Origin: Escherichia coli
GTDB taxonomy: Bacteria > Pseudomonadota > Gammaproteobacteria > Enterobacterales > Enterobacteriaceae
Strand: one strand, 5' to 3'
NCBI RefSeq assembly: GCF_003334385.1
Contig: NZ_QOWN01000022.1
DNA length: 64,000 bases
The notes beneath the pieces were generated by a model. The model saw only the letters and a program-made list of their open reading frames with translations. It was not told where the DNA came from and ran no database searches. This document shows positions 642 to 17,627 of this stretch, piece after piece. The position numbers and the translations under genes were made by a program. Within the stretch, counting starts at the first letter, position 1, and each line of letters begins with the position of its first letter.

Positions 642-681
642 CTCATTCTGACAAGATTTAATCTTTTGTCAGAATGAGGTG
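639..681. other. Perfect 16-bp inverted repeat (stem-loop) between the sapF stop and the ycjD start
   Basis: cacctcattctgacaa (639-654), an 11-nt loop, then ttgtcagaatgaggtg (666-681). The arms are exact reverse complements. The left arm contains the ycjD GTG. Confidence 0.85.
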
Positions 682-708
682 AATAATCTGGAAGGAGGAT
701 TCAGAAAA

Positions 709-1515
709 TTAGCGATCTTTACGCCACGCATCCGCCGTCAATGCCTCGCCAAAATGACCGGCAATCAGCCGTTTGGTGAGTTCATGCAGCGGCGATGCCA
801 GCACATCCGCGGTGCTGCCTCGCTCGACAACCTCGCCCTGATGCATCACCAGCACCTGGTCGCTAATGTGCTTCATCATTCCGATATGCTGGGTAACATA
901 AATATACGAAATGCCCTGTTTTTCCTGTAATTCCAGCATCAGATTAATCAACTGCGAACGCATCGACATATCCAGTGAAGCGAGGGCTTCATCGGCAATA
1001 ATGACTTTTGGGCGCAATATCAGCGCGCGCGCCAGACCCAGACGCTGTTTTTGTCCGGGTGCCAACATATGCGGATAGTAACTGACGTGATCCGGTAGCA
1101 GCCCAACCATACGCATCGTTTCAATAATCTGTTTGCGACGCTGTTCCGGTTCCAGGTCGGTGTTCAGGCGCAGTGGAAAATCCAGAATTTGCGAGATACG
1201 TTGACGGGGATTCAACGAGGTCGAAGGATCCTGAAAAATCATGCGAATACGCTGACTGCGGAAGGAATAATCGCCAAAATGCAGTGGATGATCGTCAATC
1301 AATAACTCGCCGCTGGTAGGCTCTATCATTCCCGCCAGCATTTTTGCCAGCGTGGATTTACCCGAACCATTCTCGCCAATAATCGCCAGTGTCTGGCCTT
1401 CACGTAGCGTAAAGCTCAAGGGTTTTACCGCTTCTACGGTCTGACGACGAAACCAGCCGGTCCGGTAGCGGAACGTTTTACTTAAATTACGCACTTCAAG
1501 CAGCGTTTCGATCAT
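709..1515 (-). CDS. sapF: ABC transporter ATP-binding protein SapF, 268 aa
   Basis: Walker A GENGSGKST, signature-like LAPGQKQRLGLARA, Walker B VIIADEALASLD. There is a 1-nt gap to sapD. Confidence 0.95.
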   Translation of the reverse strand: MIETLLEVRNLSKTFRYRTGWFRRQTVEAVKPLSFTLREGQTLAIIGENGSGKSTLAKMLAGMIEPTSGELLIDDHPLHFGDYSFRSQRIRMIFQDPSTSLNPRQRISQILDFPLRLNTDLEPEQRRKQIIETMRMVGLLPDHVSYYPHMLAPGQKQRLGLARALILRPKVIIADEALASLDMSMRSQLINLMLELQEKQGISYIYVTQHIGMMKHISDQVLVMHQGEVVERGSTADVLASPLHELTKRLIAGHFGEALTADAWRKDR

Positions 1516-1516
1516 C

Positions 1517-2509
1517 TCACTCTTTCTCCATGTTCAGCGGGAAATGACAGGCATAGAGATGATTTTTCGCCCCCGTCAAACGTGGCGTCACAATGCATTC
1601 TCGTTGTGCATACGGGCAACGTGGCCCCAGACGACAACCAATCGGTAACTGTTCCAGCAGTGGGATAGCGCCGGGCAGCGTATTGAGGCGACTTTTATGC
1701 GGCATCGCGCTGCCGAAGTCTGGTATCGCGCGGATCAGCGCCTGGGTATAAGGATGATGTGGCATCGTCACCAACTCCTTACTCGGCGCGGTTTCCACTG
1801 TTTGACCGCAGTAAAGCACGTTAATTTTATCCGCCCATTGGCTAAGCATTTGTAAGTCATGGCTGATAAGCAAAATAGTGGTATTGCTGTTTTGGTTGAG
1901 ACGCGTCAGCAGGCGAAAGATTTGCGCCTGGGTTGTTGGCTCCATTGAGTTGGTCGGTTCGTCAGCAATCAGCAGACGCGGTTGATTCGCCAGTGCAATG
2001 GCTATCATCACTTTCTGACATTCACCTTCGGTCAACTCATAGGGAAAACTGCGCATCGCATCTTTGTGATCTTTAATCCCCACGCGGTGCAGCAGTTCAA
2101 TGGCACGGCGTTTGCGCCAGCCAAAACGCTGCCACCAACGGCCTTTATAGGTCCAGGCTGGGATGTTTTGCATCAACTGGCGGCCCACACGTTCTGAAGG
2201 GTCAAGACACGACTGCGGTTCCTGGAAAATCATCGACACGTTATGGCCAACCAGTTTGCGCCGTTCGCGTGCGGAGAGACGCAGCAAATCGATATCATCA
2301 AAACGCATACGGTCAGCAGTAACACGCCAGTTATCTTTATTCACCCCACAAATCGCTTTCGCAATCAAACTCTTGCCGGAACCGGATTCACCAACAAGAC
2401 CGCGGATTTCACCTTCGGTTAAGGTCATACTTACCCGGTCGACGGCTTTAACCCACTCATCACCGGTTTTAAATTCAATGGTCAGGTTACGAATATCGAG
2501 TAATGGCAT
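1517..2509 (-). CDS. sapD: ABC transporter ATP-binding protein SapD, 330 aa
   Basis: Walker [10 protein letters not shown], Walker [13 protein letters not shown], and an Opp/Dpp-type C-terminal extension. Its first nt is shared with the last nt of sapC. Confidence 0.95.
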
Positions 2510-3399
2510 TATTCCACCCCCGCAATAATCGCACGACGAACGCCATCGCCAAGGAGGTTAACCAACAACACGCTAATCATAATTGCCGCACCTGGCAGCA
2601 TGACAGTCCACGGGGCGACATAAATCAGTTCCAGCGCATCACCGAGCATCGCTCCCCATTCAGGCGAGGGGAGTTGTGCGCCGAGATCGAGAAAGCCCAG
2701 CGCGGCGATATCGAGAATTGCCATCGACAGTGCGCGGGTGATCTCGGTGACCAGCCCGGCGGTGATGTTTGGCATCACAGCAAACCAGAGAATATTCAGC
2801 GTTGATGCGCCATCCAGACGGGCGGCGATAACGTACTCTTTTTCCAGTTCGTCATGCACCATGCTGTAAATCGAACGTACCATACGCGGCAGCAATGCCA
2901 GCCAGACAGCAAACATAGCGTGGGACAAACTCGGTCCGGCAAACGCTACAACGATAATTGCCAACAGCAGCGAAGGGATCGCCAGTAAGGTATCCAGAAT
3001 ATGGTTAAGCACCGCTGAGCGGAGGCCGTGTGTCGCCCCGGCGAAGGTGCCCAGTACCAGGCCACAGATCGTCGCGGCAAGCGTCACCACAAATGCGCCA
3101 CCCACGGTTGGCGCAGCTCCGCTCAGTAAACGGCTTAAAACATCGCGTCCGAGGTCGTCAGTCCCCAGGAAGAAAGAAACTTCGCCATAGCGCGACCATG
3201 ACGGCGGCAATAATTGATAACCGAGAAATTGCTGGTCGATGCCGTAAGGCGCAAACCAGCCGCCAAAAATACACAGTACAGCCAGCCCCGCGCAGCCGTA
3301 CAGGCCGACCATCGCAGAGGCGTCACTATAAAATTTGCGCCAGGCGGTACGCAGCGTGCCCGGCGGGCGCTTTTCGCTGTATACGCTATCGTAAGGCAT
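2509..3399 (-). CDS. sapC: ABC transporter permease SapC, 296 aa
   Basis: Polytopic hydrophobic ORF of the Dpp/Opp permease type. It overlaps sapB by 14 nt. Confidence 0.95.
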
Positions 3400-4351
3400 A
3401 CCATTCCTTATGTTTCAGAGGGTTAGCCATGGCACCCAAAATATCAGAAATCACGTTAACAATAATGACCAGTGAGCCACACACCATCACTCCGGCGGAA
3501 ATGGCTGCGTAATCCTGCTGGCGGATGGCGTTAATTAACCAGCGCCCTAAACCCGGCCAGCTAAAAACCATTTCGGTGATCATCGCCAGCGTCAGCATGG
3601 TGGAAAACTGTAAGCCCAGGCGAGGAATAACCGGCGGTAACGCGTTATGCAGAACGTGGCGACGCAAAATAGTAAAGCGCGACAAACCGCGGGTCGCCGC
3701 CGCTTTTACATAGTTCTGGTCATACACTTCGATAGTGCTGATACGCATCAGGCGGATCACTTCAGTTGTTGGCGCAACCGACAGGGTGATCACGGGCAAT
3801 ATCATATGGCGGATTGCGCTCATGATCATTTCATCCCGCCATGGTGAGTCCGAAAGCCAGGCATCAATCAACGCAAAACCGGTAATCGGTTTCACTTCGT
3901 AGAGCAGATCGAAACGCCCTGAAACGGGCAACCAACCTAGCGTGAGTGAACAAAACAGCGTCAACAGAAGCGCCAGCCAGAACACCGGGATTGAAAAGCC
4001 CAGTAAGGCGATGGCGTTGATCAAGTTATCCTGCCACTTATGGCTCGTAATCCCGGCAATCATCCCCACGGGGATGCCAACAATCAGCGCAAAACCGAAG
4101 GCGAGGATGCACAGTTCCATCGTCGCCGGGAAGACCTCTTTTAACTGTTCGGCAATCGGTTGACCGTTAATGCTGGAAACACCAAAATCCCAGTGGATCA
4201 GGCCGTTAAACCAGAACACCCAGGCATTCCACAGTGACGCGCCTTGTAACGGCGCATGAGGGGTGAAATAGCTCAAGCTGAAGCCAACGAAGGTCAGCAG
4301 GAACAAGGTGACAATCAATAACAAAATGCGGCGTAAGGTGAAGATAATCAT
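3386..4351 (-). CDS. sapB: ABC transporter permease SapB, 321 aa
   Basis: Polytopic hydrophobic ORF. It overlaps the sapA stop by 4 nt. Confidence 0.95.
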
Positions 4352-5991
4352 GGTTTTTTCAGCTCATCCTGTTTCTCGCGATACACCCCAGCAAAGGAGG
4401 CGTTACCAAACGGGCTAAGTACCAGACCTTTGATATCGTACCGATAGGCCTGCAAACGCAATGACGACGCCAGCGGCAAAATGGGCAATTCCTGCGCCAG
4501 AATACTCTGCGCTTCGTCATAGGCTTCAATACGCGCCGCCAGCTGCTGCGAAGAGAGCGCCTTACGCAATACGCTGTCGAATTTCGGATCGCACCAGTGG
4601 GCGAGGTTGGTCTGCGAATGAATTGCCGCGCAGCTCAGTAACGGACGGAAGAAACTGTCCGGGTCGTTACTGTCCGTCGCCCAACCGGATAACGTCAGAT
4701 CATGGCTCATATCCATCAACCGCGCCTCCTGAAAGCGACCTTCTACCGGCACAATCACCACTTTTACGCCAACCTGCGCCATATCCGCCTGAATCAGTTC
4801 GGCAGTTTTCAGTGGACTGGGGTTCCACGCCTGCGAACGTGTGGGCACCCACAGTTTCAGCGTTAAATTTTCCAGCCCCAACGACTTCAACTGTTCGCGC
4901 GATTTCGCCGGATTGTATTCAGTAATTTTAGCCTCGTTGTCATAGGCCCACGAGGCGCGCGGTAAAATAGAGGCCGCCGTTTCAGCCGTACCATAATAGA
5001 TGGATTGCATCAGGCGCTGGTTATTAATCGCCAGTGCCAGCGCATGGCGGACAGCGGGATTATTTAGCGGCGGTTTGGCGGTGTTAAATGCCAGATAGGC
5101 GACGTTCATCCCAGGACGCAGCGTTAAACGCAAGCGCGGGTCGTCACGCAAAATGGATAGCTGGCTGGCAGCAGGCCAGGCCAGAACGTCGCATTCCCCG
5201 GTCAGGAGTTTCGACAGACGTCCGGTGCCGCCGGAGCCTAAATCCACCACTACCTGCGGCATTAACGGTTTACCGCGCCAGAAGTCATCATGACGTTGTA
5301 GGCGAATAAATTGCCCGGCGCGGTATTCCGACAACTGATACGGACCGGTGCCGACCGGTTGACGGTCGAGTTGCTCCTGGCGATCTTCTTTCTCTAACTT
5401 CCGGGCATATTCTGCCGACATGACCGAAGCATAATGGGTTGCGAGGTGCCACAAAAAAGAAGCATCCGGCTGGGCGAGTCGGAACTCAACGGTATGATTA
5501 TCCAGTTTGCGGACGCTTTTCACGTTATCGGCAAATTGCAGGCTGTCGAAGTAGGGGAAGTTGCTGCCGTTGACGTTATGCCACGGGTTGTTGCGGTCAA
5601 AAATTCGCTGGAAGGTAAACACCACATCGTCGGCATTCATTTTACGAGTGGGAGTAAACCAGTCGGTTTTTTGAAACGGAACATCGCGACGCAGGTGGAA
5701 GCGATAGGTCGCGCCGTTGTCGAGTACTTCCCAGCTTTCGGCAAGTTCCGGCATCAGGCGATAGGTATAGGGATCGACATCCAGCAGTCGATCATAAAAC
5801 TGGGCGGCAAGGGTATCGACAATTAACCCACTGCTCGCTTTGGATGGGTTAAAGGTGTTGACTTGCCCGCTGACGCAATAGACAAAACCGCTGTCGCGGA
5901 TATCAGCATGCGGGGGAGATTCAGGCGCGGCGATTGCCTGACCACTCACAAGTCCAGCAATCACCAAAAGAGACGATAATACCTGGCGCAT
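4348..5991 (-). CDS. sapA: Periplasmic family-5 solute-binding protein SapA, 547 aa
   Basis: N-terminal signal peptide [21 protein letters not shown]. It has the length and sequence of an Opp/Dpp-type binding protein and is the first gene of the sapABCDF operon. Confidence 0.95.
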
Positions 5992-6239
5992 AATATTAAG
6001 GGATTTTATGTAAAGAGGCTATCTTACTAATATTTAATGACATTTGCCATTACCGTTTGTGTTCAGGGGTCGTAATGAGGGCCGTGTGGTTGGTCGTTGA
6101 ACAGGTGACGTCGCCATCTGTTCAACATTCGTACCCGTGATTTCTCTATAACTATAACTCACAGAACAACTTAGCGAGGAGCAGAGCGGTACGATCGTGA
6201 GAAACCCATTAAAGCACGCTGCAGTGCGTGTCATTGTTA

Positions 6240-6270
6240 GCCAGATGCGGCGTGAACGCTTTATCCGGAC
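6240..6270. repeat. REP (repetitive extragenic palindrome) unit, degenerate
   Basis: gccagatgcggcgtgaacgctttatccggac matches the GCCGGATGCGGCGTGAACGCCTTATCCGGC-type REP consensus with a few mismatches. Confidence 0.65.
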
Positions 6271-6303
6271 AACGATACTGACCGATCGTCTGCAATTAAA
6301 TCA

Positions 6304-6549
6304 TTACTCATTACCCCATTGATTCAAAAACTCTGCGATCTCATCAATGCGTACGGGATTAATCCCCGCTTCAGCAGCCATTTCATGTTGGGCTTCTTCG
6401 CTGATCTCTTCATTGTTCATCAAACGGGTGAGCAGTAACTGGAAGTAGTGGGCCAGCGGTGTGCGTTCAGCCTCTGCGACAGGCTCTGCGCATTCGGTCG
6501 CGTACTCATCGGCAATATCAAAATATTTTAGCGGGATATCGTGGTTCAT
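6304..6549 (-). CDS. ymjA: Small conserved protein YmjA (DUF2543), 81 aa
   Basis: Intact 81-aa acidic [22 protein letters not shown]..., recognised as K-12 YmjA. Confidence 0.85.
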
Positions 6550-6682
6550 TATTTGCCCCTGGGGTTAATGCGCTAAGCATAAGGGCGGATGATAGCACTC
6601 GTGATCCGGGTCATACATCTTTTTATAGTTAATGGCGCGGCGCGTTACCCTCAGGCAGGATAATGCGCCGCGCATCCGACTA

Positions 6683-8068
6683 TTACGTTTCACTCACCGG
6701 CGTTCTGTCACCATCATACAACGGCACTTTGCGATAGCGGCGGATCAGATACCATAAATATGCGCCGCCTAACGAAGCCCATACCAGACCGAGTGTCAGT
6801 GACGTTGACTCGAGGTTAACCCACAGCACACCCACCGTCAGCGCGCCAACCAGCGGCATCAGCAAATAGTGGAAGTGATCCTTCCAGCTTTTATTCATTC
6901 CTTTACGCCGCCAGAAATGATTAAACACCGACAGATTCACGAAGGTAAACGCCACCAGAGCACCGAAGTTAATTAACGCTGTGGCGGTAACTAAATCGAA
7001 GAACAGCGCCGACAACGCGACAATCCCGACCATAATGACGTTGAGTGCCGGAGTCCGCCATTTTGGGTGCACATAGCCAAACACGCGCTCCGGAAACACA
7101 TTGTCACGCCCCATCACATACAGCAGACGCGACACGCTGGCATGTGAAGCCAGGCCAGAGGCTAACGTGTTCACAAACGTGGTGCAGAGGAAAATCGACT
7201 GGAAGAGCTTGCCGCCGACGTACAGCGCAATTTCAGGCAGTGCGGCATCCGGATCTTTAAAGCGGCTGATATCGGGAAAGAACAGCTGCATAAAGAACGA
7301 CGCCGCGATAAAGATAACGCCACCGTAGACCGCCGTCAGGAAGATGGCTTTCGGGATCACGCGTGCGGCGTCCGGCGTCTCTTCCGAAAGCGTGGTCACC
7401 GCATCGAAACCGAGGAAGGAGAAACAGACAATCGTCGCCCCGGTAATAATCGGGATCAGGTGCGCGTTCTCGCTGATAAACGGCTGAAGTGACCAGACGG
7501 TGCCAACGCCTTCTCCTTTATGCAGTCCCTGAACTACCAGGAAGATAAACACCACCATGATGGAGATTTGCACCAGTACAAACAGGGTATTGAAGTTAGC
7601 GACCAGGTTGACGCTCTTCAGATTCGCGGCGGTTAAAATGGCGACGAAGGTTACCACCCACACCCACGGCGGCACTTCCGGGAAGAGGGCGGAGAGATAG
7701 ATTTTCGCCAACAAGACGTTAATCATCGGCAAAAAGAGATAATCCAGCAGCGATGACCAGCCGACCATAAATCCGACGTGCGGGTTAATCGACTTTTGCG
7801 CGTAGGTATAGGCCGAACCGGCCTCCGGAAACTGGCGAACCAGTTTGCCGTAGCTGATAGCGGTAAACAGCACACCCGCCAGCGCCAGCAAATAGGACGC
7901 CGGAACGTGACCGTCGCTAATGCCGGAGACAATACCAAAAGTATCAAATACGGTCATCGGCGTGAGATAGGCCAGACCCATCATCACCACCTGCCACAAT
8001 TTCAGTGATTTTCGCAGACGGGTTTTGCCGGGTTGCGCAGCAATATTCAGTGGTGAATTAATAGCCAT
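6683..8068 (-). CDS. puuP: Putrescine importer PuuP (APC family), 461 aa
   Basis: 12-TM amino acid/polyamine permease ORF. The start was set at the ATG (RC cat 8066-8068) giving [15 protein letters not shown]. The track ORF extends 18 codons further upstream. Confidence 0.93.
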
Positions 8069-8356
8069 AATTGCTGCCTCCCCTGCGTAATAAGGTTTGC
8101 GGTCGTGTCGACCTGAAATCAAACCTGTTTAGCAAGGGAAGCAAAGGGGGCGGAGTCCAGTCAGTAGCAGGAGGGGCGCATACGCAGCCTCCCTCGCCAT
8201 GCGGGGATTTAATCATCGGCATCATCTCATTTCCTCGTCACAGTCTTAATCGTTAACGGAAGCCCGTTGCCGCCCGCGCTCCATAACGCGACATCCGGGA
8301 AATGTCTGGATTACCAGCAAATGTCAGGCCTGGCTCCGCTCAGGCCGATGAAACAA

Positions 8357-8368
8357 CCCCGCAAGGGG
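8357..8368 (-). terminator. Short GC stem-loop just after the puuA stop (possible attenuator between puuA and puuP)
   Basis: ccccgcaagggg (4-bp stem, 4-nt loop) lies 3 nt downstream of the puuA stop. On the minus strand it is followed by ttgttt. It is weak and would have to allow readthrough to puuP. Confidence 0.35.
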
Positions 8369-8370
8369 TA

Positions 8371-9789
8371 TTACGCGTTTTTCAACATCCACTCAATTTC
8401 TGTTTCTGTGATGAGGCGCTCAAACTGCAACAGCTCATCATTTTTACAGGCGTGATAGACATGGCAGAAGCGTTCGCCTAAATAGCGGCGCAGGTGATCA
8501 TTCTCGATAAACTCACCCAGGGCATCGCTCTGGCGAATCGGAAAGGGTAAGCCTTCCTGTTCCAGCCCGTTGCCTTCGACTTCTTCCTGCAACGGCAGCT
8601 CGTTATCAAGGCCATGCAAAATACCGGCAAAAATCGCTGCCATCACCAGATATGGGTTGGCATCGGCACCCGCCACGCGATATTCCACGCGGTGATTATG
8701 ACGGTCGCCGCACGGAATACGCAGGGCGACGGTGCGGTTGTTATGGCCCCACGACGCCTGCGTCGGCACATACATTCCCGGCTGGAAGCGGCGATACGAG
8801 TTCACGTTTGGTGCCAGCAACGCCATCGACGACGGCATCAGGTCAATCATCCCGGCGAGCATCTTTTTCAGCAGCGGCGAATCTTCGCCTTCCGCGTCAG
8901 AAAGCACGTTCTCGCCACGATTATTTTGCATACTGATATGGATATGCATTCCGCTGCCCGCGTGCTCTTCATACGGCTTCGCCATAAAAGTGGCGTGCAT
9001 CTTATGCTTTTCTGCCATCAGACGCACCAGGCGTTTTAGTGCCAGCGCATCATCGCAGGCTTCCAGCACGTTATCAGTATGGTAAAGGTTGATTTCAAAC
9101 TGACCCGGCGAGGCCTCAGCGACCGCGCCATCTGCCGGAATCAGCTGTAACTGCGCCAGTTCATCAATATCATTGAGCACGTCGGCGAAGTGGTTGAGGT
9201 TATCAACGGAGTAAACCTGGCTTTGTGTATTGCGGTCATCGGTGCCAGGCGCGCAGGGCGGTTGCAGATACCCTTCAGCGTCGCGCTGGCGATCCAGTAA
9301 ATAGAACTCCAGCTCTACCGCTACGACCGGGAACAATCCGCGCTGGCGCAGCTGCTGCCACAGGCGGTTAAGAACGTTCCGCGGCTCAACGTCAAAGGGA
9401 GCGCCATCTTCATCGACCATGGTCAGGAGCATCTGACCGATAAACTCTGGATCGGCGGCAGAAGGAGTTAAGGAACCGAGAACAGGAACACAGGTACGAT
9501 CCGGCTCGCCCATTTCCTGACCCAGACCTGCTTCTTCTACTACGTTGCCCAGAATATCCATTGCAAATACCGAGGCCGGGAAATAACACCCTTTCTCGAG
9601 CTTCTTCAGGCTTGAAACAGGAATACGCTTTCCACGGAAGCAACCATTTAAATCGGTAAGTAAAACATCAACATATTGCGTATTCGGGTAGCGCTCCAGG
9701 TAGCGTTTCACTTCCTGCGTAAAGGCGCTACCCCGCCTCTCTTCTGACTGCTGAACAAAGTTCTCTACTTCAACGATATTGGTTTCCAT
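8371..9789 (-). CDS. puuA: Glutamate-putrescine ligase PuuA (glutamine synthetase family), 472 aa
   Basis: GS-family ORF. The start is at the ATG 9787-9789 giving METNIVEVENFVQQSEE. The track ORF has 26 extra upstream codons. Confidence 0.95.
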   Translation of the reverse strand: METNIVEVENFVQQSEERRGSAFTQEVKRYLERYPNTQYVDVLLTDLNGCFRGKRIPVSSLKKLEKGCYFPASVFAMDILGNVVEEAGLGQEMGEPDRTCVPVLGSLTPSAADPEFIGQMLLTMVDEDGAPFDVEPRNVLNRLWQQLRQRGLFPVVAVELEFYLLDRQRDAEGYLQPPCAPGTDDRNTQSQVYSVDNLNHFADVLNDIDELAQLQLIPADGAVAEASPGQFEINLYHTDNVLEACDDALALKRLVRLMAEKHKMHATFMAKPYEEHAGSGMHIHISMQNNRGENVLSDAEGEDSPLLKKMLAGMIDLMPSSMALLAPNVNSYRRFQPGMYVPTQASWGHNNRTVALRIPCGDRHNHRVEYRVAGADANPYLVMAAIFAGILHGLDNELPLQEEVEGNGLEQEGLPFPIRQSDALGEFIENDHLRRYLGERFCHVYHACKNDELLQFERLITETEIEWMLKNA

Positions 9790-9832
9790 GATTCTTCGCC
9801 TTTGGTTTGTTTTCCGCTCGTTATCAAAGCGT

Positions 9833-9847
9833 AAAATATAATGACCA
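9833..9847 (+). promoter_or_regulatory. Candidate PuuR operator copy 1 (aaaatataatgacca)
   Basis: A 13-nt core aaaatataatgaC/A is repeated at 10005-10019. It lies in the puuA-puuD divergent control region. From memory, the published PuuR consensus is AAAATATAATGAACA. Confidence 0.55.
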
Positions 9848-9929
9848 CCATTCGAATCTGTATGCAAACTAAATGTTTGTCAAATGTTAAATTGAGTTTG
9901 CAAAAATGAAAACCCACTGCTAGATTGAA

Positions 9930-9942
9930 AAAATATTGAACA
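9930..9942 (+). promoter_or_regulatory. Candidate PuuR operator-like variant (aaaatattgaaca)
   Basis: Same motif lacking 2 nt, in the same intergenic region. Confidence 0.3.
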
Positions 9943-10000
9943 TAAAGGTCATTTAAAGCGCAGTAATGGCGATAATTTAGTCCACTTTGTGAGATTGAGC

Positions 10001-10765
10001 ATGGAAAATATAATGAACAATCCGGTTATCGGTGTCGTAATGTGCAGGAACAGGCTTAAGGGTCATGCGACCCAGACTCTGCAAGAAAAGTACCTGAATG
10101 CCATCATCCATGCAGGCGGCTTGCCTATTGCGCTACCACATGCGCTGGCGGAACCGTCATTACTTGAACAACTTTTGCCGAAACTCGATGGCATTTATCT
10201 TCCTGGTAGTCCCAGCAATGTGCAGTCGCACCTATATGGTGAAAACGGCGATGAGCCTGACGCCGATCCCGGGCGTGATCTTCTGAGCATGGCGATAATT
10301 AATGCCGCACTCGAAAGGCGCATCCCCATTTTCGCCATCTGCCGGGGTTTACAAGAACTGGTGGTGGCAACCGGTGGTTCGTTGCATCGCAAGCTGTGCG
10401 AACAGCCTGAATTGCTGGAACATCGGGAAGATCCCGAACTGCCGGTGGAACAGCAATATGCACCGTCGCATGAAGTTCAGGTTGAAGAGGGGGGATTACT
10501 GTCTGCGTTGTTACCTGAATGTAGCAACTTTTGGGTAAACTCTCTACATGGACAAGGGGCGAAGGTCGTTAGCCCACGGTTGCGTGTTGAAGCTCGCTCG
10601 CCGGATGGCTTAGTTGAGGCGGTTAGCGTCATCAATCATCCTTTTGCGCTGGGCGTACAGTGGCACCCGGAATGGAACAGTAGCGAGTACGCGCTTTCGC
10701 GTATATTGTTCGAGGGCTTTATCACCGCTTGTCAGCACCATATCGCTGAAAAACAGCGACTCTGA
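10001..10765 (+). CDS. puuD: Gamma-glutamyl-GABA hydrolase PuuD (class I glutamine amidotransferase-like), 254 aa
   Basis: Nucleophile elbow FAICRGLQ and a C-terminal HPE triad motif (QWHPEW). The start is at ATG 10001 (MENIMNNPVIG). Confidence 0.95.
   Translation: MENIMNNPVIGVVMCRNRLKGHATQTLQEKYLNAIIHAGGLPIALPHALAEPSLLEQLLPKLDGIYLPGSPSNVQSHLYGENGDEPDADPGRDLLSMAIINAALERRIPIFAICRGLQELVVATGGSLHRKLCEQPELLEHREDPELPVEQQYAPSHEVQVEEGGLLSALLPECSNFWVNSLHGQGAKVVSPRLRVEARSPDGLVEAVSVINHPFALGVQWHPEWNSSEYALSRILFEGFITACQHHIAEKQRL
10005..10019 (+). promoter_or_regulatory. Candidate PuuR operator copy 2 (aaaatataatgaaca), inside the first codons of puuD
   Basis: It matches the remembered PuuR consensus exactly and overlaps puuD codons 2-7 (ENIMNN). 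Confidence 0.55.
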
Positions 10766-10791
10766 CCACTACAGTTTAAGGAAATGCAAAT

Positions 10792-11349
10792 ATGAGTGAT
10801 GAGGGACTGGCGCCAGGAAAACGCTTGTCGGAAATCCGCCAGCAGCAGGGGCTTTCACAACGTCGTGCCGCCGAACTCTCCGGGCTGACTCACAGTGCTA
10901 TCAGTACGATAGAACAAGATAAAGTCAGCCCTGCCATCAGTACGCTGCAAAAGCTGCTGAAGGTGTATGGTCTGTCACTCTCGGAATTCTTTTCCGAGCC
11001 GGAAAAACCTGATGAGCCGCAGGTCGTCATTAATCAGGACGACTTAATTGAGATGGGTAGTCAGGGTGTGTCAATGAAGCTGGTTCATAACGGTAACCCG
11101 AATCGCACGCTGGCGATGATCTTTGAAACGTACCAGCCGGGCACAACCACTGGGGAAAGAATTAAGCATCAGGGTGAGGAAATAGGCACTGTACTGGAAG
11201 GTGAAATTGTTCTGACGATTAATGGTCAGGATTACCACCTCGTCGCGGGGCAAAGTTATGCCATTAATACCGGCATCCCGCACAGTTTCAGTAATACGTC
11301 GGCAGGTATTTGCCGAATTATCAGCGCCCATACGCCCACCACGTTTTAA
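10792..11349 (+). CDS. puuR: Repressor PuuR (N-terminal XRE HTH plus C-terminal cupin), 185 aa
   Basis: HTH region LSQRRAAELSGLTHSAISTIEQDK and a cupin-like C-terminal half. Confidence 0.95.
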   Translation: MSDEGLAPGKRLSEIRQQQGLSQRRAAELSGLTHSAISTIEQDKVSPAISTLQKLLKVYGLSLSEFFSEPEKPDEPQVVINQDDLIEMGSQGVSMKLVHNGNPNRTLAMIFETYQPGTTTGERIKHQGEEIGTVLEGEIVLTINGQDYHLVAGQSYAINTGIPHSFSNTSAGICRIISAHTPTTF

Positions 11350-11365
11350 TCTTTTTGTTCTGTAA

Positions 11366-11390
11366 GCCGGGTAAGCGCAATGCGCCCGGC
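11366..11390. repeat. REP-like GC hairpin after puuR
   Basis: gccgggtaagcgcaatgcgcccggc has a 6-bp stem gccggg/cccggc. No T tract follows. Confidence 0.5.
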
Positions 11391-11410
11391 AATCTATACA
11401 CAAAATCATT

Positions 11411-11525
11411 CAAGTTGCATCAAGGCGGCAAGTGAGCGAATCCCGATGAGCTTACTCAGGTAAGTGATTCGGGGGAGCGAACGCAGCCAAGGCAGAGGCG
11501 GCTTGAAGGATGAAGTGTATATAAA
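11411..11525. repeat. ERIC / IRU (enterobacterial repetitive intergenic consensus) element
   Basis: aagtgagcgaatcccgatgagcttactcaggtaagtgattcgggggagcgaacgcagccaaggc... matches the remembered ERIC core (GTGAATCCCCAGGAGCTTACATAAGTAAGTGACTGGGGTGAGCG). It is an imperfect palindrome centred on gagcttac/gtaagtga. Confidence 0.7.
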
Positions 11526-11623
11526 GAATGTCGCCAGAAATAAACGGGCATACGGCCCGGGGATCTCTGCGCCCTGACGTTCACAAACTGCATATATCTG
11601 ATAGACGTGAAACAGGAGTCATA

Positions 11624-13110
11624 ATGAATTTTCATCATCTGGCTTACTGGCAGGATAAAGCGTTAAGTCTCGCCATTGAAAACCGCTTATTTATTAACGG
11701 TGAATATACTGCTGCGGCGGAAAATGAAACCTTTGAAACCGTTGATCCGGTCACCCAGGCACCGCTGGCGAAAATTGCCCGCGGCAAGAGCGTCGATATC
11801 GACCGTGCGATGAGCGCAGCACGCGGCGTATTTGAACGCGGCGACTGGTCACTCTCTTCTCCGGCTAAACGTAAAGCGGTACTGAATAAACTCGCCGATT
11901 TAATGGAAGCCCACGCCGAAGAGCTGGCACTGCTGGAAACTCTCGACACCGGCAAACCGATTCGTCACAGTCTGCGTGATGATATTCCCGGCGCGGCGCG
12001 CGCCATTCGCTGGTACGCCGAAGCGATCGACAAAGTGTATGGCGAAGTGGCGACCACCAGTAGCCATGAGCTGGCGATGATCGTGCGTGAACCGGTCGGC
12101 GTGATTGCCGCCATCGTGCCGTGGAACTTCCCGCTGTTGCTGACTTGCTGGAAACTCGGCCGGCGCTGGCGGCGGGAAACAGCGTGATTCTAAAACCGTC
12201 TGAAAAATCACCGCTCAGTGCGATTCGTCTCGCGGGGCTGGCGAAAGAAGCAGGCTTGCCGGATGGTGTGTTGAACGTGGTGACGGGTTTTGGTCATGAA
12301 GCCGGGCAGGCGCTGTCGCGTCATAACGATATCGACGCCATTGCCTTTACCGGTTCAACCCGTACCGGGAAACAGCTGCTGAAAGATGCGGGCGACAGCA
12401 ACATGAAACGCGTCTGGCTGGAAGCGGGCGGCAAAAGCGCCAACATCGTTTTCGCTGACTGCCCGGATTTGCAACAGGCGGCAAGCGCCACCGCAGCAGG
12501 CATTTTCTACAACCAGGGACAGGTGTGCATCGCCGGAACGCGCCTGTTGCTGGAAGAGAGCATCGCCGATGAATTCTTAGCCCTGTTAAAACAGCAGGCG
12601 CAAAACTGGCAGCCGGGCCATCCACTTGATCCCGCAACCACCATGGGCACCTTAATCGACTGCGCCCACGCCGACTCGGTCCATAGCTTTATTCGGGAAG
12701 GCGAAAGCAAAGGGCAACTGTTGTTGGATGGCCGTAACGCCGGGCTGGCTGCCGCCATCGGCCCGACCATCTTTGTGGATGTGGACCCGAATGCGTCCTT
12801 AAGTCGCGAAGAGATTTTCGGTCCGGTGCTGGTGGTCACGCGTTTCACATCAGAAGAACAGGCGCTACAGCTTGCCAACGACAGCCAGTACGGCCTTGGC
12901 GCGGCGGTATGGACGCGCGACCTCTCCCGCGCGCACCGCATGAGCCGACGCCTGAAAGCCGGTTCCGTCTTCGTCAATAACTACAACGACGGCGATATGA
13001 CCGTGCCGTTTGGCGGCTATAAGCAGAGCGGCAACGGTCGCGACAAATCCCTGCATGCCCTTGAAAAATTCACTGAACTGAAAACCATCTGGATAAGCCT
13101 GGAGGCCTGA
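11624..13110 (+). pseudogene. puuC: puuC (aldH), gamma-glutamyl-gamma-aminobutyraldehyde dehydrogenase, interrupted by a 1-nt frameshift near 12160
   Basis: ATG 11624 to stop 13110 is 1487 nt (3n-1). The first frame ends ...PWNFPLLLTCWKLG-RRWRRETA* at 12187. The overlapping ORF 12121-13110 continues PALAAGNSVILKPSEKSPL to the normal C-terminus. The local sequence is ctcGGCCGGcgc, and GGCCCGG would restore a 495-aa ALDH. Confidence 0.85.
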
Positions 13111-13111
13111 A

Positions 13112-14392
13112 ATGACCGAACATACCAGCAGTTACTACGCCGCCAGTGCGAATAAATATGCACCATTCGACACGCTGAATGAGTCAATCACCTGCGACGT
13201 TTGCGTGGTTGGCGGCGGCTATACCGGGCTCTCCTCCGCGCTGCATCTGGCGGAAGCGGGCTTTGACGTAGTGGTTCTCGAAGCCTCACGCATCGGCTTT
13301 GGCGCAAGCGGGCGCAATGGCGGACAGCTTGTGAACTCCTACAGCCGCGACATCGACGTGATCGAAAAAAGCTACGGCATGGACACCGCCCGTATGCTCG
13401 GCAGCATGATGTTCGAAGGTGGTGAGATCATCCGCGAACGTATCAAACGTTATCAGATTGACTGCGACTACCGCCCCGGCGGCCTGTTTGTGGCGATGAA
13501 TGATAAACAGCTCGCCACACTTGAAGAGCAGAAAGAGAACTGGGAACGCTACGGCAATAAACAGCTGGAATTGCTGGACGCCAACGCCATTCGCCGTGAA
13601 GTAGCCAGCGATCGCTATACCGGTGCGCTGCTGGATCACAGCGGTGGGCATATTCATCCGCTAAACCTTGCCATTGGCGAAGCGGACGCCATCCGCCTCA
13701 ACGGCGGGCGCGTGTATGAACTTTCTGCCGTGACGCAGATCCAGCACACCACGCCAGCCGTTGTGCGAACTGCCAAAGGTCAGGTGACGGCGAAGTATGT
13801 GATTGTCGCCGGGAATGCGTATCTGGGCGATAAAGTAGAGCCGGAACTGGCGAAACGCAGCATGCCGTGCGGCACGCAGGTGATCACCACCGAACGGCTG
13901 TCGGAAGATTTAGCCCGTTCGCTGATCCCGAAAAACTACTGTGTGGAAGACTGTAACTATCTGCTTGATTACTACCGTCTTACCGCCGACAACCGCCTGC
14001 TGTACGGCGGCGGCGTGGTCTACGGCGCGCGCGACCCGGATGACGTTGAGCGCCTTGTGGTGCCGAAACTGCTGAAAACCTTCCCGCAGCTGAAGGGCGT
14101 GAAAATTGATTACCGCTGGACGGGCAACTTCCTGCTGACCCTGTCGCGTATGCCGCAGTTTGGTCGCCTCGATACCAACATCTATTACATGCAGGGCTAC
14201 AGCGGCCACGGCGTGACCTGTACTCATCTAGCCGGACGTTTGATTGCCGAACTGCTGCGCGGCGACGCCGAACGTTTCGATGCCTTCGCCAATCTGCCGC
14301 ATTACCCGTTCCCCGGCGGGCGCACGCTGCGTGTGCCGTTTACCGCGATGGGCGCGGCGTATTACAGCCTGCGCGATCGTCTGGGCGTTTAA
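13112..14392 (+). CDS. puuB: Gamma-glutamylputrescine oxidase PuuB (FAD-dependent), 426 aa
   Basis: N-terminal dinucleotide-binding motif DVCVVGGGYTGLSSA. There is a 1-nt gap after puuC. Confidence 0.95.
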   Translation: MTEHTSSYYAASANKYAPFDTLNESITCDVCVVGGGYTGLSSALHLAEAGFDVVVLEASRIGFGASGRNGGQLVNSYSRDIDVIEKSYGMDTARMLGSMMFEGGEIIRERIKRYQIDCDYRPGGLFVAMNDKQLATLEEQKENWERYGNKQLELLDANAIRREVASDRYTGALLDHSGGHIHPLNLAIGEADAIRLNGGRVYELSAVTQIQHTTPAVVRTAKGQVTAKYVIVAGNAYLGDKVEPELAKRSMPCGTQVITTERLSEDLARSLIPKNYCVEDCNYLLDYYRLTADNRLLYGGGVVYGARDPDDVERLVVPKLLKTFPQLKGVKIDYRWTGNFLLTLSRMPQFGRLDTNIYYMQGYSGHGVTCTHLAGRLIAELLRGDAERFDAFANLPHYPFPGGRTLRVPFTAMGAAYYSLRDRLGV

Positions 14393-14429
14393 TTTCCGAT
14401 TAACCGTGAAGAGTCAAAAGGTGTGAAAC

Positions 14430-15695
14430 ATGAGCAACAATGAATTCCATCAGCGTCGTCTTTCTGCCACTCCGCGCGGGGTTGGCGTGATGTGTAACTT
14501 CTTCGCCCAGTCGGCTGAAAACGCCACGCTGAAGGATGTTGAGGGCAACGAGTACATCGATTTCGCCGCAGGCATTGCGGTGCTGAATACCGGACATCGC
14601 CACCCTGATCTGGTCGCGGCGGTGGAGCAGCAACTGCAACAGTTTACCCACACCGCGTATCAGATTGTGCCGTATGAAAGCTACGTCACCCTGGCGGAGA
14701 AAATCAACGCCCTTGCCCCGGTGAGCGGGCAGGCCAAAACCGCGTTCTTCACCACCGGTGCGGAAGCGGTGGAAAACGCGGTGAAAATTGCTCGCGCCCA
14801 TACCGGACGCCCTGGCGTGATTGCGTTTAGCGGCGGCTTTCACGGTCGTACGTATATGACCATGGCGCTGACCGGAAAAGTTGCGCCGTACAAAATCGGC
14901 TTCGGCCCGTTCCCTGGTTCGGTGTATCACGTACCTTATCCGTCAGATTTACACGGCATTTCAACACAGGACTCCCTCGACGCCATCGAACGCTTGTTTA
15001 AATCAGACATCGAAGCGAAGCAGGTGGCGGCGATTATTTTCGAACCGGTGCAGGGCGAGGGCGGTTTCAACGTTGCGCCAAAAGAGCTGGTTGCCGCTAT
15101 TCGCCGCCTGTGCGACGAGCACGGTATTGTGATGATTGCTGATGAAGTGCAAAGCGGCTTTGCGCGTACCGGTAAGCTGTTTGCCATGGATCATTACGCC
15201 GATAAGCCGGATTTAATGACGATGGCGAAAAGCCTCGCGGGCGGGATGCCGCTTTCGGGCGTGGTCGGTAACGCGAATATTATGGACGCACCCGCGCCGG
15301 GCGGGCTTGGCGGCACCTACGCCGGTAACCCGCTGGCGGTGGCTGCCGCGCACGCGGTGCTCAACATTATCGACAAAGAATCACTCTGCGAACGCGCGAA
15401 TCAACTGGGCCAGCGTCTCAAAAACACGTTGATTGATGCCAAAGAAAGCGTTCCGGCCATTGCTGCGGTACGCGGCCTGGGGTCGATGATTGCGGTAGAG
15501 TTTAACGATCCGCAAACGGGCGAGCCGTCAGCGGCGATTGCACAGAAAATCCAGCAACGCGCGCTGGCGCAGGGGCTGCTCCTGCTGACCTGTGGCGCAT
15601 ACGGCAACGTGATTCGCTTCCTGTATCCGCTGACCATCCCGGATGCGCAATTCGATGCGGCAATGAAAATTTTGCAGGATGCGCTGAGCGATTAA
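14430..15695 (+). CDS. puuE: 4-aminobutyrate aminotransferase PuuE (class III PLP aminotransferase), 421 aa
   Basis: Class III aminotransferase sequence with the DEVQSGFARTG motif. It is the last gene of the puu cluster. Confidence 0.95.
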   Translation: MSNNEFHQRRLSATPRGVGVMCNFFAQSAENATLKDVEGNEYIDFAAGIAVLNTGHRHPDLVAAVEQQLQQFTHTAYQIVPYESYVTLAEKINALAPVSGQAKTAFFTTGAEAVENAVKIARAHTGRPGVIAFSGGFHGRTYMTMALTGKVAPYKIGFGPFPGSVYHVPYPSDLHGISTQDSLDAIERLFKSDIEAKQVAAIIFEPVQGEGGFNVAPKELVAAIRRLCDEHGIVMIADEVQSGFARTGKLFAMDHYADKPDLMTMAKSLAGGMPLSGVVGNANIMDAPAPGGLGGTYAGNPLAVAAAHAVLNIIDKESLCERANQLGQRLKNTLIDAKESVPAIAAVRGLGSMIAVEFNDPQTGEPSAAIAQKIQQRALAQGLLLLTCGAYGNVIRFLYPLTIPDAQFDAAMKILQDALSD

Positions 15696-15714
15696 TAGCC
15701 CAACGCAATAATGT

Positions 15715-15794
15715 CTGATGCGCTGCGCTTATCAGGCCTGCAAACGACGTATTGATTATGTATGCCGAATAAAGCATTCACGCCGCATCCGGCA
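15715..15794. repeat. BIME: two REP units between the convergent genes puuE and pspF
   Basis: ctgatgcgctgcgcttatcaggc (15715-15737) and tgccgaataaagcattcacgccgcatccggca (15763-15794), in inverted orientation. Confidence 0.75.
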
Positions 15795-15814
15795 AGTTGT
15801 ATTGCTCAACTTCG

Positions 15815-16792
15815 CTAAATCTGGTGCTTTTTCAACAACGCGCGGAACTGATGATAAGTTAACCCCAGTAATTCAGCCGCGCGCTTCTGGTTATATTTCC
15901 CTTGTTGCAAACTGAGTTGCAGCAACTCTTTTTCCTGCTGCATCTGAAACTCACGTAAATCCAGCGGCAGTGTTGGAAGCGAGGTGGTTTCTGAAACGGC
16001 GATAGCGTCTTCAGGCGGACGCCGTTTAAAGGGATCAATAATGATGTCATCAAGCGGATAATCGCTGGTGCCGTGGCGATACACTGAACGTTCCACCACG
16101 TTTTTCAATTCACGAATATTTCCCGGCCAACGATAATTCAGCAATGTTTCTCTGGCGCGCTCCGTAAACCCCGGGAACAGAGGCAGCTTGATTTCCCGAC
16201 ACATCTGGATGGCAAAGTATTCTGCCATCAACATTATGTCGCTTTCGCGCTCGCGCAGTGGTGGCAGTTGTACAACATCAAAAGCCAGTCGGTCGAGCAG
16301 GTCAGCGCGAAAAGTGCCTTCATTGACCATCGCCGGGAGATCGGCATTCGTCGCGCATACCAACCGCACATTCACCTGCAATGGCTGGCTGCCGCCAACG
16401 CGCTCCAGTTCACCGTACTCAATCACGCGCAATAATTTCTCCTGCACCATCATCGGTGCCGTAGCGAGTTCATCAAGAAATAGCGTACCGCCGTCGGCAC
16501 GTTCAAATCTCCCTGGATGACGTTTTTGCGCACCGGTAAACGCCCCCGCTTCGTGACCAAACAGTTCGGAATCCAGCAGATTTTCATTTAACGCCGCGCA
16601 GTTAAGGGAAATAAACGGCCCTTGCCAACGGGAGGAGAGATAATGCAGGCGGCTGGCAATCAGCTCTTTACCGGTGCCGCGTTCGCCGATGATGAGCACC
16701 GGTTTGTCCAGCGGTGCGAGATGCGAAACCTGTTCCAGCACTTCGAGAAAGCTGTTCGCCTCACCAAGTAAATTATCTTTGTATTCTGCCAT
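15815..16792 (-). CDS. pspF: Sigma54-dependent activator PspF (AAA+ plus C-terminal HTH, no receiver domain), 325 aa
   Basis: Walker A GERGTGKE, the GAFTGA loop (HEAGAFTGAQ), and C-terminal HTH AAELLGLTYHQFRALLKKH. The start is at ATG 16790-16792 (MAEYKDN). Confidence 0.95.
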   Translation of the reverse strand: MAEYKDNLLGEANSFLEVLEQVSHLAPLDKPVLIIGERGTGKELIASRLHYLSSRWQGPFISLNCAALNENLLDSELFGHEAGAFTGAQKRHPGRFERADGGTLFLDELATAPMMVQEKLLRVIEYGELERVGGSQPLQVNVRLVCATNADLPAMVNEGTFRADLLDRLAFDVVQLPPLRERESDIMLMAEYFAIQMCREIKLPLFPGFTERARETLLNYRWPGNIRELKNVVERSVYRHGTSDYPLDDIIIDPFKRRPPEDAIAVSETTSLPTLPLDLREFQMQQEKELLQLSLQQGKYNQKRAAELLGLTYHQFRALLKKHQI

Positions 16793-16886
16793 GATGAAAT
16801 TCGCCACTTGTTAGTGTAATTCGCTAACTCATCCTGGCATGTTGCTGTTGATTCTTCAATCAGATCTTTATAAATCAAAAAGATAA

Positions 16887-17627
<741 letters not shown>

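What the first reader, a model, noticed from the sequence alone, without database searches (positions are those of the whole stretch)
12151..12190. puuC is split by a single-base frameshift inside the conserved aldehyde-dehydrogenase motif
Two overlapping ORFs (11528-12187 and 12121-13110) together encode one aldehyde dehydrogenase. The first frame reads ...IVPWNFPLLLTCWKLG and then runs into RRWRRETA-stop. The second frame picks up at PALAAGNSVILKPSEKSPL. The conserved PWNFP...GPALAAGN..KPSE block is therefore broken exactly between G and P. From ATG 11624 to stop 13110 is 1487 nt (3n-1), so one base is missing. The local sequence is ctcGGCCGGcgc, and a C3 run (GGCCCGG) would restore a 495-aa protein. 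Every other gene I checked in the window has its expected K-12 length, so this is a genuine strain-specific pseudogenisation of the third Puu pathway step or a homopolymer consensus error.
Basis: partly seen in the sequence, partly recalled or inferred. Interest (0 to 1): 0.55.

Follow-up and report, generated by a model that had tools for sequence, protein, structure and literature searches.

The report
Real one-base frameshift inactivating puuC
One missing C splits the putrescine-pathway aldehyde dehydrogenase gene puuC in this K-12-like E. coli; independent assemblies show the same deletion, so it is a genuine but ordinary clone-specific pseudogene and not a sequencing error.

Summary
Window puuC (11624-13110) is 1487 nt. 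It is identical to MG1655 puuC (1488 nt) except that GGCCCGG has become GGCCGG (CC at 12160-12161). The reading frame breaks after Gly179, inside WKLG|PALAAGN, and stops at 12185-12187.

The evidence favours a real mutation:
- The same allele, on 100% identical flanks, is in a read-level Logan assembly of run ERR1948963. That contig was seen in 7 samples.
- It is also in an NCBI assembly, GCA_012504395.1, where no puuC product is called.
- It is absent from all 3300 complete RefSeq E. coli genomes that match the site.
- It is the only indel in about 59 kb against the nearest relative.

No −1 slippery heptamer or long homopolymer run supports recoding. The oxyanion-hole Asn168 lies on one fragment. 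Lys191, Glu267 and Cys302 lie on the other, so the enzyme is almost certainly dead.

The rest of the puu cluster is intact, so the loss looks recent. It belongs to a small clone that also carries private missense changes in sapA, sapB and puuD. Loss of puu genes in E. coli lineages is already described. This is an ordinary finding of low interest.

The parts
11624..13110 (+). puuC pseudogene (gamma-glutamyl-gamma-aminobutyraldehyde dehydrogenase), 1487 nt instead of 1488
   Evidence: Identical to MG1655 puuC apart from one deleted C. It has the same position in the puuD-puuR-puuC-puuB-puuE gene order as in annotated genomes.
12160..12161 (+). Site of the 1-nt deletion: a CC run where every relative has CCC (GGCCCGG to GGCCGG)
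   Evidence: None of the 3300 complete genomes matching the 80-nt site is identical to it.
11624..12187 (+). 5' fragment ORF: PuuC residues 1-179 plus 8 out-of-frame residues (RRWRRETA), then TGA at 12185-12187. Contains Asn168 of PWNFP.
   Evidence: NF007352 positions 1-179 at 386.6 bits, below the 850-bit cut-off. The exact 187-aa product is on record only from the ERR1948963 contig.
12121..13110 (+). 3' fragment ORF in the -1 frame. The native PuuC reading resumes at CCG 12160 (Pro180). The only gene-caller start is GTG 12184, overlapping the TGA as GTGA (308 aa). Contains Lys191, Glu194, Glu267 and Cys302.
   Evidence: NF007352 positions 189-495 at 687.5 bits, below the cut-off.
13112..14392 (+). 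puuB (gamma-glutamylputrescine oxidase), intact at 426 aa. It has its own GGAGG Shine-Dalgarno inside the puuC 3' end.
   Evidence: No difference from MG1655.
14430..15695 (+). puuE (GABA aminotransferase), intact at 421 aa
10001..10765 (+). puuD (gamma-glutamyl-GABA hydrolase), full length at 254 aa, with a rare Pro to Ser substitution at nt 10226
   Evidence: 0 of 4372 complete genomes carry the allele. It is present in 41 blocks of the wider assembly collection.
10792..11349 (+). puuR repressor, intact at 185 aa
8371..9789 (-). puuA (glutamate-putrescine ligase), intact at 472 aa
   Evidence: L004 coordinates plus 6623; searches show no difference from MG1655
6683..8068 (-). puuP (putrescine importer), intact at 461 aa
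   Evidence: searches show no difference from MG1655 here

Best explanation
This is a genuine, recent, clone-specific loss-of-function mutation. One C was deleted from a C3 run in puuC of a K-12-like (not K-12) E. coli.

Shown: translation from ATG 11624 leaves the native frame after Gly179, adds RRWRRETA and terminates at 12185-12187.

Inferred from established aldehyde dehydrogenase (ALDH) enzymology: the 187-aa product keeps the oxyanion-hole Asn168. It lacks the cofactor-binding Lys191 and Glu194, the general base Glu267 and the nucleophile Cys302. It therefore cannot oxidise gamma-glutamyl-gamma-aminobutyraldehyde.

Inferred: a 308-aa C-terminal piece might be made by weak re-initiation at GTG 12184, which overlaps the stop as GTGA. 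It would lack the first 187 residues, and neither piece would carry the PALAAGNS segment. A reconstituted enzyme is therefore very unlikely.

Inferred consequences:
- The glutamylated putrescine (Puu) pathway is blocked at its third enzymatic step.
- The PatA/PatD transaminase route should still allow putrescine to serve as a nitrogen source.
- About 920 nt of untranslated puuC mRNA may lower puuB and puuE expression through Rho-dependent polarity, although puuB keeps its own GGAGG ribosome-binding site.

Whether the loss is neutral decay or selected is not resolved.
For: 1. The lesion is exactly one base, in a gene otherwise 100% identical to MG1655 puuC.

2. It is reproduced outside the window's own assembly. 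Logan contig ERR1948963_31 (63,305 nt, same contig in 7 samples) is 100% identical to window 96-14351 and 6624-17187, deletion included. NCBI GCA_012504395.1 contig DABAMG010000022.1 is 100% identical to window 4001-16765, deletion included, and no puuC product is called there. That contig ends at about window position 81, so the window comes from yet another assembly, one that reads into the flanking IS.

3. It is not a recurrent artefact of this motif. 0 of 3300 complete genomes carry it. The exact 187-aa product occurs in one contig group among about 15 billion proteins. There were 0 hits for the 39-mer in metagenome contigs and in species-representative genomes.

4. The assembly is not noisy. 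Against SW070917 there are 19 substitutions and one gap in about 59 kb. Against MG1655 and HL15 there is only one further private indel, at 61626.

5. The deletion travels with other private alleles of the same clone (sapB R to S, sapA V to L, puuD P to S) that the independent assemblies also reproduce.

6. Each fragment scores below the PuuC equivalog cut-off of 850 bits (386.6 and 687.5). The intact MG1655 gene, which is what restoring the C would give, scores 1112.8. The catalytic motifs fall on different fragments. The WKLGPAL block is conserved in the solved homologue shown (5iuu).

7. Precedent: puu-gene absence or pseudogenisation is reported as fixed in an E. coli lineage (bioRxiv 10.1101/2024.06.03.596356). 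1054 of 5426 complete genomes have no puuC or puuD match. Other puuC truncations are on record.
Against: - I could not inspect a read pile-up.
- The independent assemblies may derive from one isolate or one project. The 7 samples are not listed, and GCA_012504395.1 may have been assembled from one of those runs. Independence is therefore certain for the assembly pipelines but not for the DNA preparations.
- The same preprint reports that a puuC frameshift in a 3-base homopolymer of the V. parahaemolyticus reference genome was a sequencing error. This class of artefact does occur.
- No expression or phenotype data exist for this clone. Other aldehyde dehydrogenases might partly substitute.
Confidence: 0.9

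Rival explanations
1. Sequencing or consensus error: the strain really has CCC and an intact puuC, and one C was dropped from the short homopolymer during base-calling or assembly.
For: The lesion is a homopolymer contraction. A second private contraction (A6 to A5) lies at 61626. A directly analogous puuC frameshift in the V. parahaemolyticus reference genome proved to be an error. Several other public assemblies with split puuC are visibly noisy: L009 to L012 carry extra indels in neighbouring genes.
Against: The same allele appears in three differently built assemblies: the window's source, a Logan read-level assembly whose contig was seen in 7 samples, and NCBI GCA_012504395.1. A C3 run is short for homopolymer error. 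Only one or two indels occur in 64 kb. A motif-specific systematic error would recur in unrelated E. coli assemblies, but the exact product is unique to this clone.
Confidence: 0.06
2. Recoding or a functional split gene. Either a programmed -1 ribosomal frameshift (or transcriptional slippage) restores full-length PuuC, or the two ORFs are translationally coupled through the GTGA overlap at 12184-12187 and assemble into a two-piece enzyme.
For: The required shift is -1, and a slip right after GGC would re-read CCG and regenerate the native protein. The stop of ORF1 overlaps a GTG in the downstream frame, which a gene caller used as a start.
Against: There is no X XXY YYZ heptamer in the upstream frame and no run of 6 or more bases anywhere in the 12091-12187 overlap zone. 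The frameshift is not conserved: all other genomes encode a single 495-aa ORF. The sequence upstream of GTG 12184 has no good Shine-Dalgarno. A split at this point would omit residues 180-187 of a conserved motif and would cut through the protein between catalytic and cofactor-binding residues.
Confidence: 0.02

Closest known systems
E. coli K-12 puuC (aldH, b1300; WP_001009090.1), the NAD-dependent gamma-glutamyl-gamma-aminobutyraldehyde dehydrogenase of the Puu pathway
   Same: 1487 of 1488 nucleotides are identical, with the same operon context puuD-puuR-puuC-puuB-puuE. It matches the same equivalog model, NF007352.
   Different: One C is missing, so the ORF is split after Gly179 and no fragment reaches the equivalog cut-off.
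Lineage-fixed puu-gene loss or pseudogenisation described in E. coli, Shigella, the V. parahaemolyticus pandemic clone wave 4 and V. cholerae 7PET (bioRxiv 10.1101/2024.06.03.596356)
   Same: It is loss of function in the Puu pathway confined to one lineage. In that study, puuC deletion was used as the proxy for whole-pathway loss, and delta-puuC MG1655 showed more biofilm and adhesion.
   Different: Here the loss is a single-base frameshift in a very small clone (4 contigs carry its private SapB allele). The rest of the cluster is intact. There is no evidence of spread, fixation in a large lineage or selection.
Other truncated puuC alleles in public E. coli assemblies
   Same: Same gene, same N-terminal half and the same 308-aa downstream ORF call. 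One allele (P0003, 194 aa) that ends right after KPSE occurs on 35 contigs.
   Different: These are different lesions: a G3 to G2 contraction 15 nt downstream in L005, L009 and L014 (a 2-nt loss in L011), substitutions in L007 and L008 consistent with premature stops, and a 7-nt deletion in L006. Several are in assemblies with other obvious indel errors.
The puuC 'pseudogene' of the V. parahaemolyticus RIMD2210633 reference genome, a frameshift in an A3 run that resequencing showed to be an error
   Same: It is a one-base frameshift in a 3-base homopolymer inside puuC.
   Different: That one came from a single low-depth (8.9x) assembly and disappeared on resequencing. This one is reproduced in several assemblies and sequencing runs.

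Membership tests
PuuC (NCBIfam NF007352 equivalog, aldehyde dehydrogenase PuuC) | Whole-protein score at or above the curated cut-off of 850 bits | tested here: not met
   The fragments score 386.6 bits (positions 1-179) and 687.5 bits (positions 189-495). The intact MG1655 sequence scores 1112.8 bits. The locus is puuC by descent but does not encode a PuuC protein.
PuuC (NCBIfam NF007352 equivalog, aldehyde dehydrogenase PuuC) | Orthologous position in the puuP/puuA and puuD-puuR-puuC-puuB-puuE cluster, with near-identity to K-12 puuC | tested here: met
   The gene order is the same as in MG1655, SW070917 and HL15. 1487 of 1488 nt are identical to MG1655 puuC.
Aldehyde dehydrogenase superfamily (Pfam PF00171) | Significant match to the Aldedh profile | tested here: met
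   N fragment E = 4.6e-43 (profile positions 4-147). C fragment E = 5.6e-115 (profile positions 157-461).
Aldehyde dehydrogenase superfamily (Pfam PF00171) | Oxyanion-hole Asn, NAD-binding Lys/Glu, general-base Glu and catalytic Cys all on one polypeptide | tested here: not met
   Asn168 (PWNFP) is on the 5' fragment. Lys191 and Glu194 (ILKPSE), Glu267 (LEAGGKS) and Cys302 (GQVCIAG) are on the 3' fragment. The roles of these residues are assigned from general ALDH knowledge and were not tested here.
Programmed -1 ribosomal frameshift or transcriptional-slippage genes (such as dnaX or IS transposases) | Slippery heptamer X XXY YYZ in the 0 frame, or a long homopolymer run, within the ORF overlap | tested here: not met
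   None found in 12091-12187.
Programmed -1 ribosomal frameshift or transcriptional-slippage genes (such as dnaX or IS transposases) | Frameshift conserved among orthologues | tested here: not met
   0 of 3300 complete genomes share it. The orthologues are single 1488-nt ORFs.
Programmed -1 ribosomal frameshift or transcriptional-slippage genes (such as dnaX or IS transposases) | Downstream stimulatory RNA structure | not tested
   Not pursued, because no slippery site is present.
Assembly or homopolymer consensus artefact | Not reproducible in independently built assemblies or read sets | tested here: not met
   It is reproduced in Logan ERR1948963 (contig seen in 7 samples) and in NCBI GCA_012504395.1, both on 100% identical flanks.
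Assembly or homopolymer consensus artefact | Accompanied by many other homopolymer indels and broken genes nearby | tested here: not met
   There is one gap in about 59 kb against SW070917. There is only one other private indel in 64 kb (A6 to A5 at 61626, intergenic) against MG1655 and HL15.
Assembly or homopolymer consensus artefact | Raw-read pile-up contradicts the consensus | not testable with these tools

The most novel reading that the evidence does not exclude
The frameshift might be an adaptive loss and not neutral decay. On this reading the clone was selected for altered putrescine homeostasis. Four of its eight private non-prophage mutations in this window fall in putrescine export or catabolism genes (sapA V to L, sapB R to S, puuD P to S, puuC frameshift). 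[quoted passage not shown]

The enrichment is not significant (P about 0.10). The puuD allele also occurs with intact puuC on other backgrounds. This reading remains speculative.
Probability: 0.12. Interest if true: 0.35.

Novelty: already known. Interest (0 to 1): 0.1.

Why it matters
It matters little beyond correct annotation. puuC should be annotated as a pseudogene in this strain, as NCBI's annotation of a sister assembly already implies, and should not be "repaired".

Metabolic models of this clone should lack the glutamylated putrescine pathway. If the strain is used experimentally, it is predicted to fail on putrescine as sole carbon source and may accumulate putrescine.

At most, it adds one small data point to the reported pattern of recurrent puu-pathway loss in enteric bacteria.

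Tried and rejected
- **Exact deletion 39-mer in JGI metagenome contigs and GTDB species representatives:** 0 hits in each. This says only that the allele is rare.
- **Look-up of the 308-aa downstream ORF:** I expected more carriers of the allele. Apart from the ERR1948963 contig already found, it returned other puuC lesions (G3 to G2, substitutions consistent with premature stops, a 7-nt deletion), several of them in noisy assemblies.
- **Literature search for ERR1948963:** nothing found. The strain and project remain unidentified.
- **Schneider & Reitzer 2012 (J Bacteriol 194:4080):** not held. Statements about PatD/PuuC redundancy and putrescine accumulation in puuC mutants rest on my memory of that paper and of Kurihara et al. 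2005 (J Biol Chem 280:4602).
- **Recoding:** rejected because there is no slippery site or long run.
- **K-12 origin:** rejected. The window lacks K-12's IS5 at ynaJ/ynaI and K-12's ycjV frameshift, and it differs from MG1655 by about 20 SNPs.
- **Excess of non-synonymous private SNPs:** 7 of 7 chromosomal, 10 of 11 overall. Not significant against a 73% neutral expectation (P = 0.11 and 0.16).
- **Enrichment of private mutations in sap and puu genes:** not significant (P = 0.10).
- **Dating the deletion within the clone through the private SapB allele:** only 4 contigs carry it, and the one place shown has the split puuC. No intact-puuC intermediate was found.

Full report
**What is in the sequence.** The region 11400-13300 contains two overlapping + strand ORFs. 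The first is 11528-12187 (219 aa, or 187 aa from ATG 11624). The second is 12121-13110 (329 aa from GTG). A megablast of 11624-13110 against 5,426 complete RefSeq E. coli genomes hits puuC in 4,372 of them. All 40 listed top hits span 1488 bases in the record against 1487 in the window. Base-level alignment with MG1655 shows a single difference: GGCCCGG in MG1655 is GGCCGG in the window, with CC at 12160-12161. Over the whole gene there is no other substitution. In the upstream frame the codons run ...AAA CTC GGC(Gly179) CGG CGC TGG CGG CGG GAA ACA GCG TGA(12185-12187). The -1 frame reads CCG GCG CTG GCG GCG GGA AAC, which is PALAAGN.

**Identity of the gene.** The two pieces match the NCBIfam PuuC equivalog NF007352 at model positions 1-179 (386.6 bits) and 189-495 (687.5 bits). 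Both are below the 850-bit cut-off, while the intact MG1655 protein scores 1112.8 bits. Pfam Aldedh is matched at profile positions 4-147 and 157-461. Gene order around it is puuP and puuA on the - strand, then puuD, puuR, puuC, puuB and puuE on the + strand. This is the same as in annotated MG1655, SW070917 and HL15. All other puu genes have their normal lengths. Apart from one missense change in puuD, the cluster from the 3' part of puuA to puuE (window 8624-16110) is identical to MG1655.

**Real mutation or consensus error?** This was the open question, and four lines of evidence bear on it.

1. The allele is not a recurrent artefact of the motif. None of the 3,300 complete genomes that match an 80-nt query centred on the site is identical to it. 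The 39-mer carrying the deletion has no hit in JGI metagenome contigs or in GTDB species representatives. The exact 187-aa truncated product exists in one contig group among about 15 billion proteins.

2. The window is not a noisy assembly. Against its nearest complete relative (SW070917) about 59 kb align with 19 substitutions and one gap, the puuC one. Against MG1655 and HL15 the only other window-private indel in 64 kb is an A6 to A5 contraction at 61626, in an intergenic spacer of the Rac prophage.

3. The allele is reproduced elsewhere.
   - The Logan read-level assembly of run ERR1948963 has a 63,305-nt contig, flagged as seen in 7 samples. It is 100% identical to window 96-14351 and 6624-17187, deletion included.
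   - NCBI assembly GCA_012504395.1 (contig DABAMG010000022.1, 79,705 nt) is 100% identical to window 4001-16765, deletion included. No puuC protein is called there, and puuB starts one base earlier than in intact relatives.
   - That contig ends at about window position 81, whereas the window continues into the flanking IS. The window therefore comes from a third assembly.

4. The deletion travels with other clone-private alleles (sapB R to S at 4045, sapA V to L at 4362, puuD P to S at 10226). These are reproduced in the same independent assemblies.

I could not see read pile-ups, and the samples may all derive from one strain or project. Even so, an assembler or consensus artefact is now unlikely, and I put it at about 0.06. 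A relevant caution comes from a preprint that reports a puuC frameshift in an A3 run of the V. parahaemolyticus reference genome which vanished on resequencing. That case rested on a single 8.9x assembly. This one does not.

**Recoding.** A -1 shift immediately after GGC would regenerate the native protein. However, the overlap zone between the two frames (12091-12187) contains no X XXY YYZ heptamer in the upstream frame and no run of six or more identical bases. The frameshift is also not conserved in any orthologue. The TGA at 12185-12187 overlaps a GTG at 12184 that one gene caller used as the start of a 308-aa ORF. The 20 nt upstream hold no good Shine-Dalgarno. A protein starting there would lack residues 1-187.

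**Consequence for the enzyme and the pathway.**
- In PuuC numbering, Asn168 (PWNFP) sits on the 5' fragment. Lys191 and Glu194 (ILKPSE), Glu267 (LEAGGKS) and Cys302 (GQVCIAG) sit on the 3' fragment.
- The roles of these residues (oxyanion hole, NAD binding, general base, nucleophile) are established ALDH knowledge and were not tested here.
- The WKLGPAL block at the break is conserved in the closest solved homologue (5iuu, annotated only as an aldehyde dehydrogenase family protein). KauB (6b4r) and a gamma-glutamyl-gamma-aminobutyraldehyde dehydrogenase (4lih) are also among the best hits.
- I therefore infer a null allele. The Puu route (PuuA, PuuB, PuuC, PuuD, then PuuE; pathway as summarised in PMC9397018) is blocked at its third enzymatic step.
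- From memory of Kurihara et al. 2005 and Schneider & Reitzer 2012 (not held): the Puu pathway is needed for putrescine as sole carbon source, the PatA/PatD route can still supply nitrogen, PuuC is a broad-specificity aldehyde dehydrogenase, and putrescine accumulates in puuC mutants.
- Polarity on puuB and puuE through about 920 nt of untranslated mRNA is possible but untested. puuB retains its own GGAGG 8 nt upstream of its ATG.

**Evolutionary context.**
- The window is K-12-like but not K-12. It differs from MG1655 by about 20 SNPs in 64 kb, lacks K-12's IS5 between ynaJ and ynaI, has an intact ycjV where K-12 is frameshifted, begins with the end of an IS4-like IS421 as in SW070917, and carries Rac.
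- The clone is small. Its private SapB allele is on only 4 contigs, and the one place shown has the split puuC. I could not find an intermediate with the clone's SNPs and an intact puuC.
- puuC has accumulated no second lesion and the rest of the cluster is intact, so the loss is recent.
- Loss of this pathway is not unusual. 1,054 of 5,426 complete genomes have no megablast match to puuC or to puuD. Other truncated puuC alleles are on record, one of them on 35 contigs.
- A 2025 preprint reports puu-gene absence or pseudogenisation fixed in an E. coli lineage, and enhanced biofilm and adhesion in delta-puuC MG1655.
- Whether this particular loss was selected cannot be decided. The clustering of private mutations in sap and puu genes (4 of 8) is not significant (P about 0.10).

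**Verdict.** The alternative of a consensus error is largely, though not formally, excluded. The feature is an ordinary private loss-of-function allele of a well-characterised, dispensable catabolic gene. Nothing about it is new in kind, and I score its interest at about 0.1.

Noticed in passing
window 4045, 4362, 10226, 30158, 31714, 40113, 53192: All seven chromosomal substitutions private to the window (against SW070917, HL15 and MG1655) are non-synonymous: sapB R to S, sapA V to L, puuD P to S, ycjV A to V, ompG G to A, ycjY T to P, abgR G to E. The mutation spectrum is mixed. This is compatible with unselected mutation accumulation in the clone (a mutator, mutagenised or long-stored strain?). 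It is not significant against neutral expectation (P = 0.11).
   Followed up: partly
window 10226 (puuD): The Pro to Ser change in SPSNVQ[P/S]HLYGEN of PuuD is absent from all 4372 complete genomes that have puuD. The exact protein nevertheless occurs in 41 blocks of the wider assembly collection, on several backgrounds, mostly with intact puuC. Its effect on PuuD activity is unknown.
   Followed up: partly
window 61626 (Rac prophage, spacer between recT and ralR): This is a second window-private homopolymer contraction: A5 here against A6 in both MG1655 and HL15, about 20 nt upstream of the ralR start on the gene strand. I did not check it in the independent assemblies.
   Followed up: no
window about 30655-30660 (ycjV, ORF span 29611-30783): ycjV is intact here, with a G6 run. 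MG1655 has G5 and an annotated frameshifted pseudogene.
   Followed up: yes
window 44921-44924: The IS5 that K-12 carries between ynaJ and ynaI is absent. The window is collinear with duck isolates HL15 and SF10 here.
   Followed up: yes
window 1-74: The window starts with the end of an IS4-like IS421 element inserted between ycjD and fabI. SW070917 shares it, but MG1655 and HL15 do not. The Logan contig starts at window 96 and the contig of GCA_012504395.1 ends at about window 81, as expected at a repeat edge.
   Followed up: partly
window 59624-64000: This is the Rac prophage end (intR, xisR, rcbA, ralR, recT, part of recE) integrated next to ttcA. It is absent from SW070917. recE carries three private non-synonymous SNPs at 63156, 63486 and 63704. 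The Logan contig ends at about 63,400.
   Followed up: partly
window 61238-61416 (+), 56811-56928 (+), 53338-53433 (-): Known sRNAs were found at Rfam gathering score: RalA (antitoxin of RalR), FnrS and McaS. None lies near puuC.
   Followed up: yes
L005, L009, L011, L014 (equivalent to the GGG run at window 12174-12176): Another puuC lesion recurs in unrelated public assemblies. G3 has contracted to G2 in GCGGCGGGAAAC, 15 nt downstream of this site, and L011 has lost 2 nt there. L014 (GCA_047159125.1) has no other difference from MG1655 over the 6.9-kb locus. L009 and L011 have further indels in neighbouring genes, which suggests long-read errors. Whether this is a mutational hot spot or a base-calling artefact is open.
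   Followed up: partly
E. coli genome collection: Exactly 4372 of 5426 complete E. coli genomes match puuC, and the same number match puuD. About 19% of genomes therefore lack at least these two puu genes at megablast sensitivity. I did not determine which lineages these are.
   Followed up: no
window about 11400-11520 (puuR-puuC spacer): The 275-nt spacer contains an imperfect palindromic element that, from memory, resembles an ERIC/IRU repeat (...GTGAGCGAATCCCGATGAGCTTACTCAGGTAAGTGATTCGGGGGAGCGAACGCAGCC...). It is identical in MG1655. It was not tested further.
   Followed up: no
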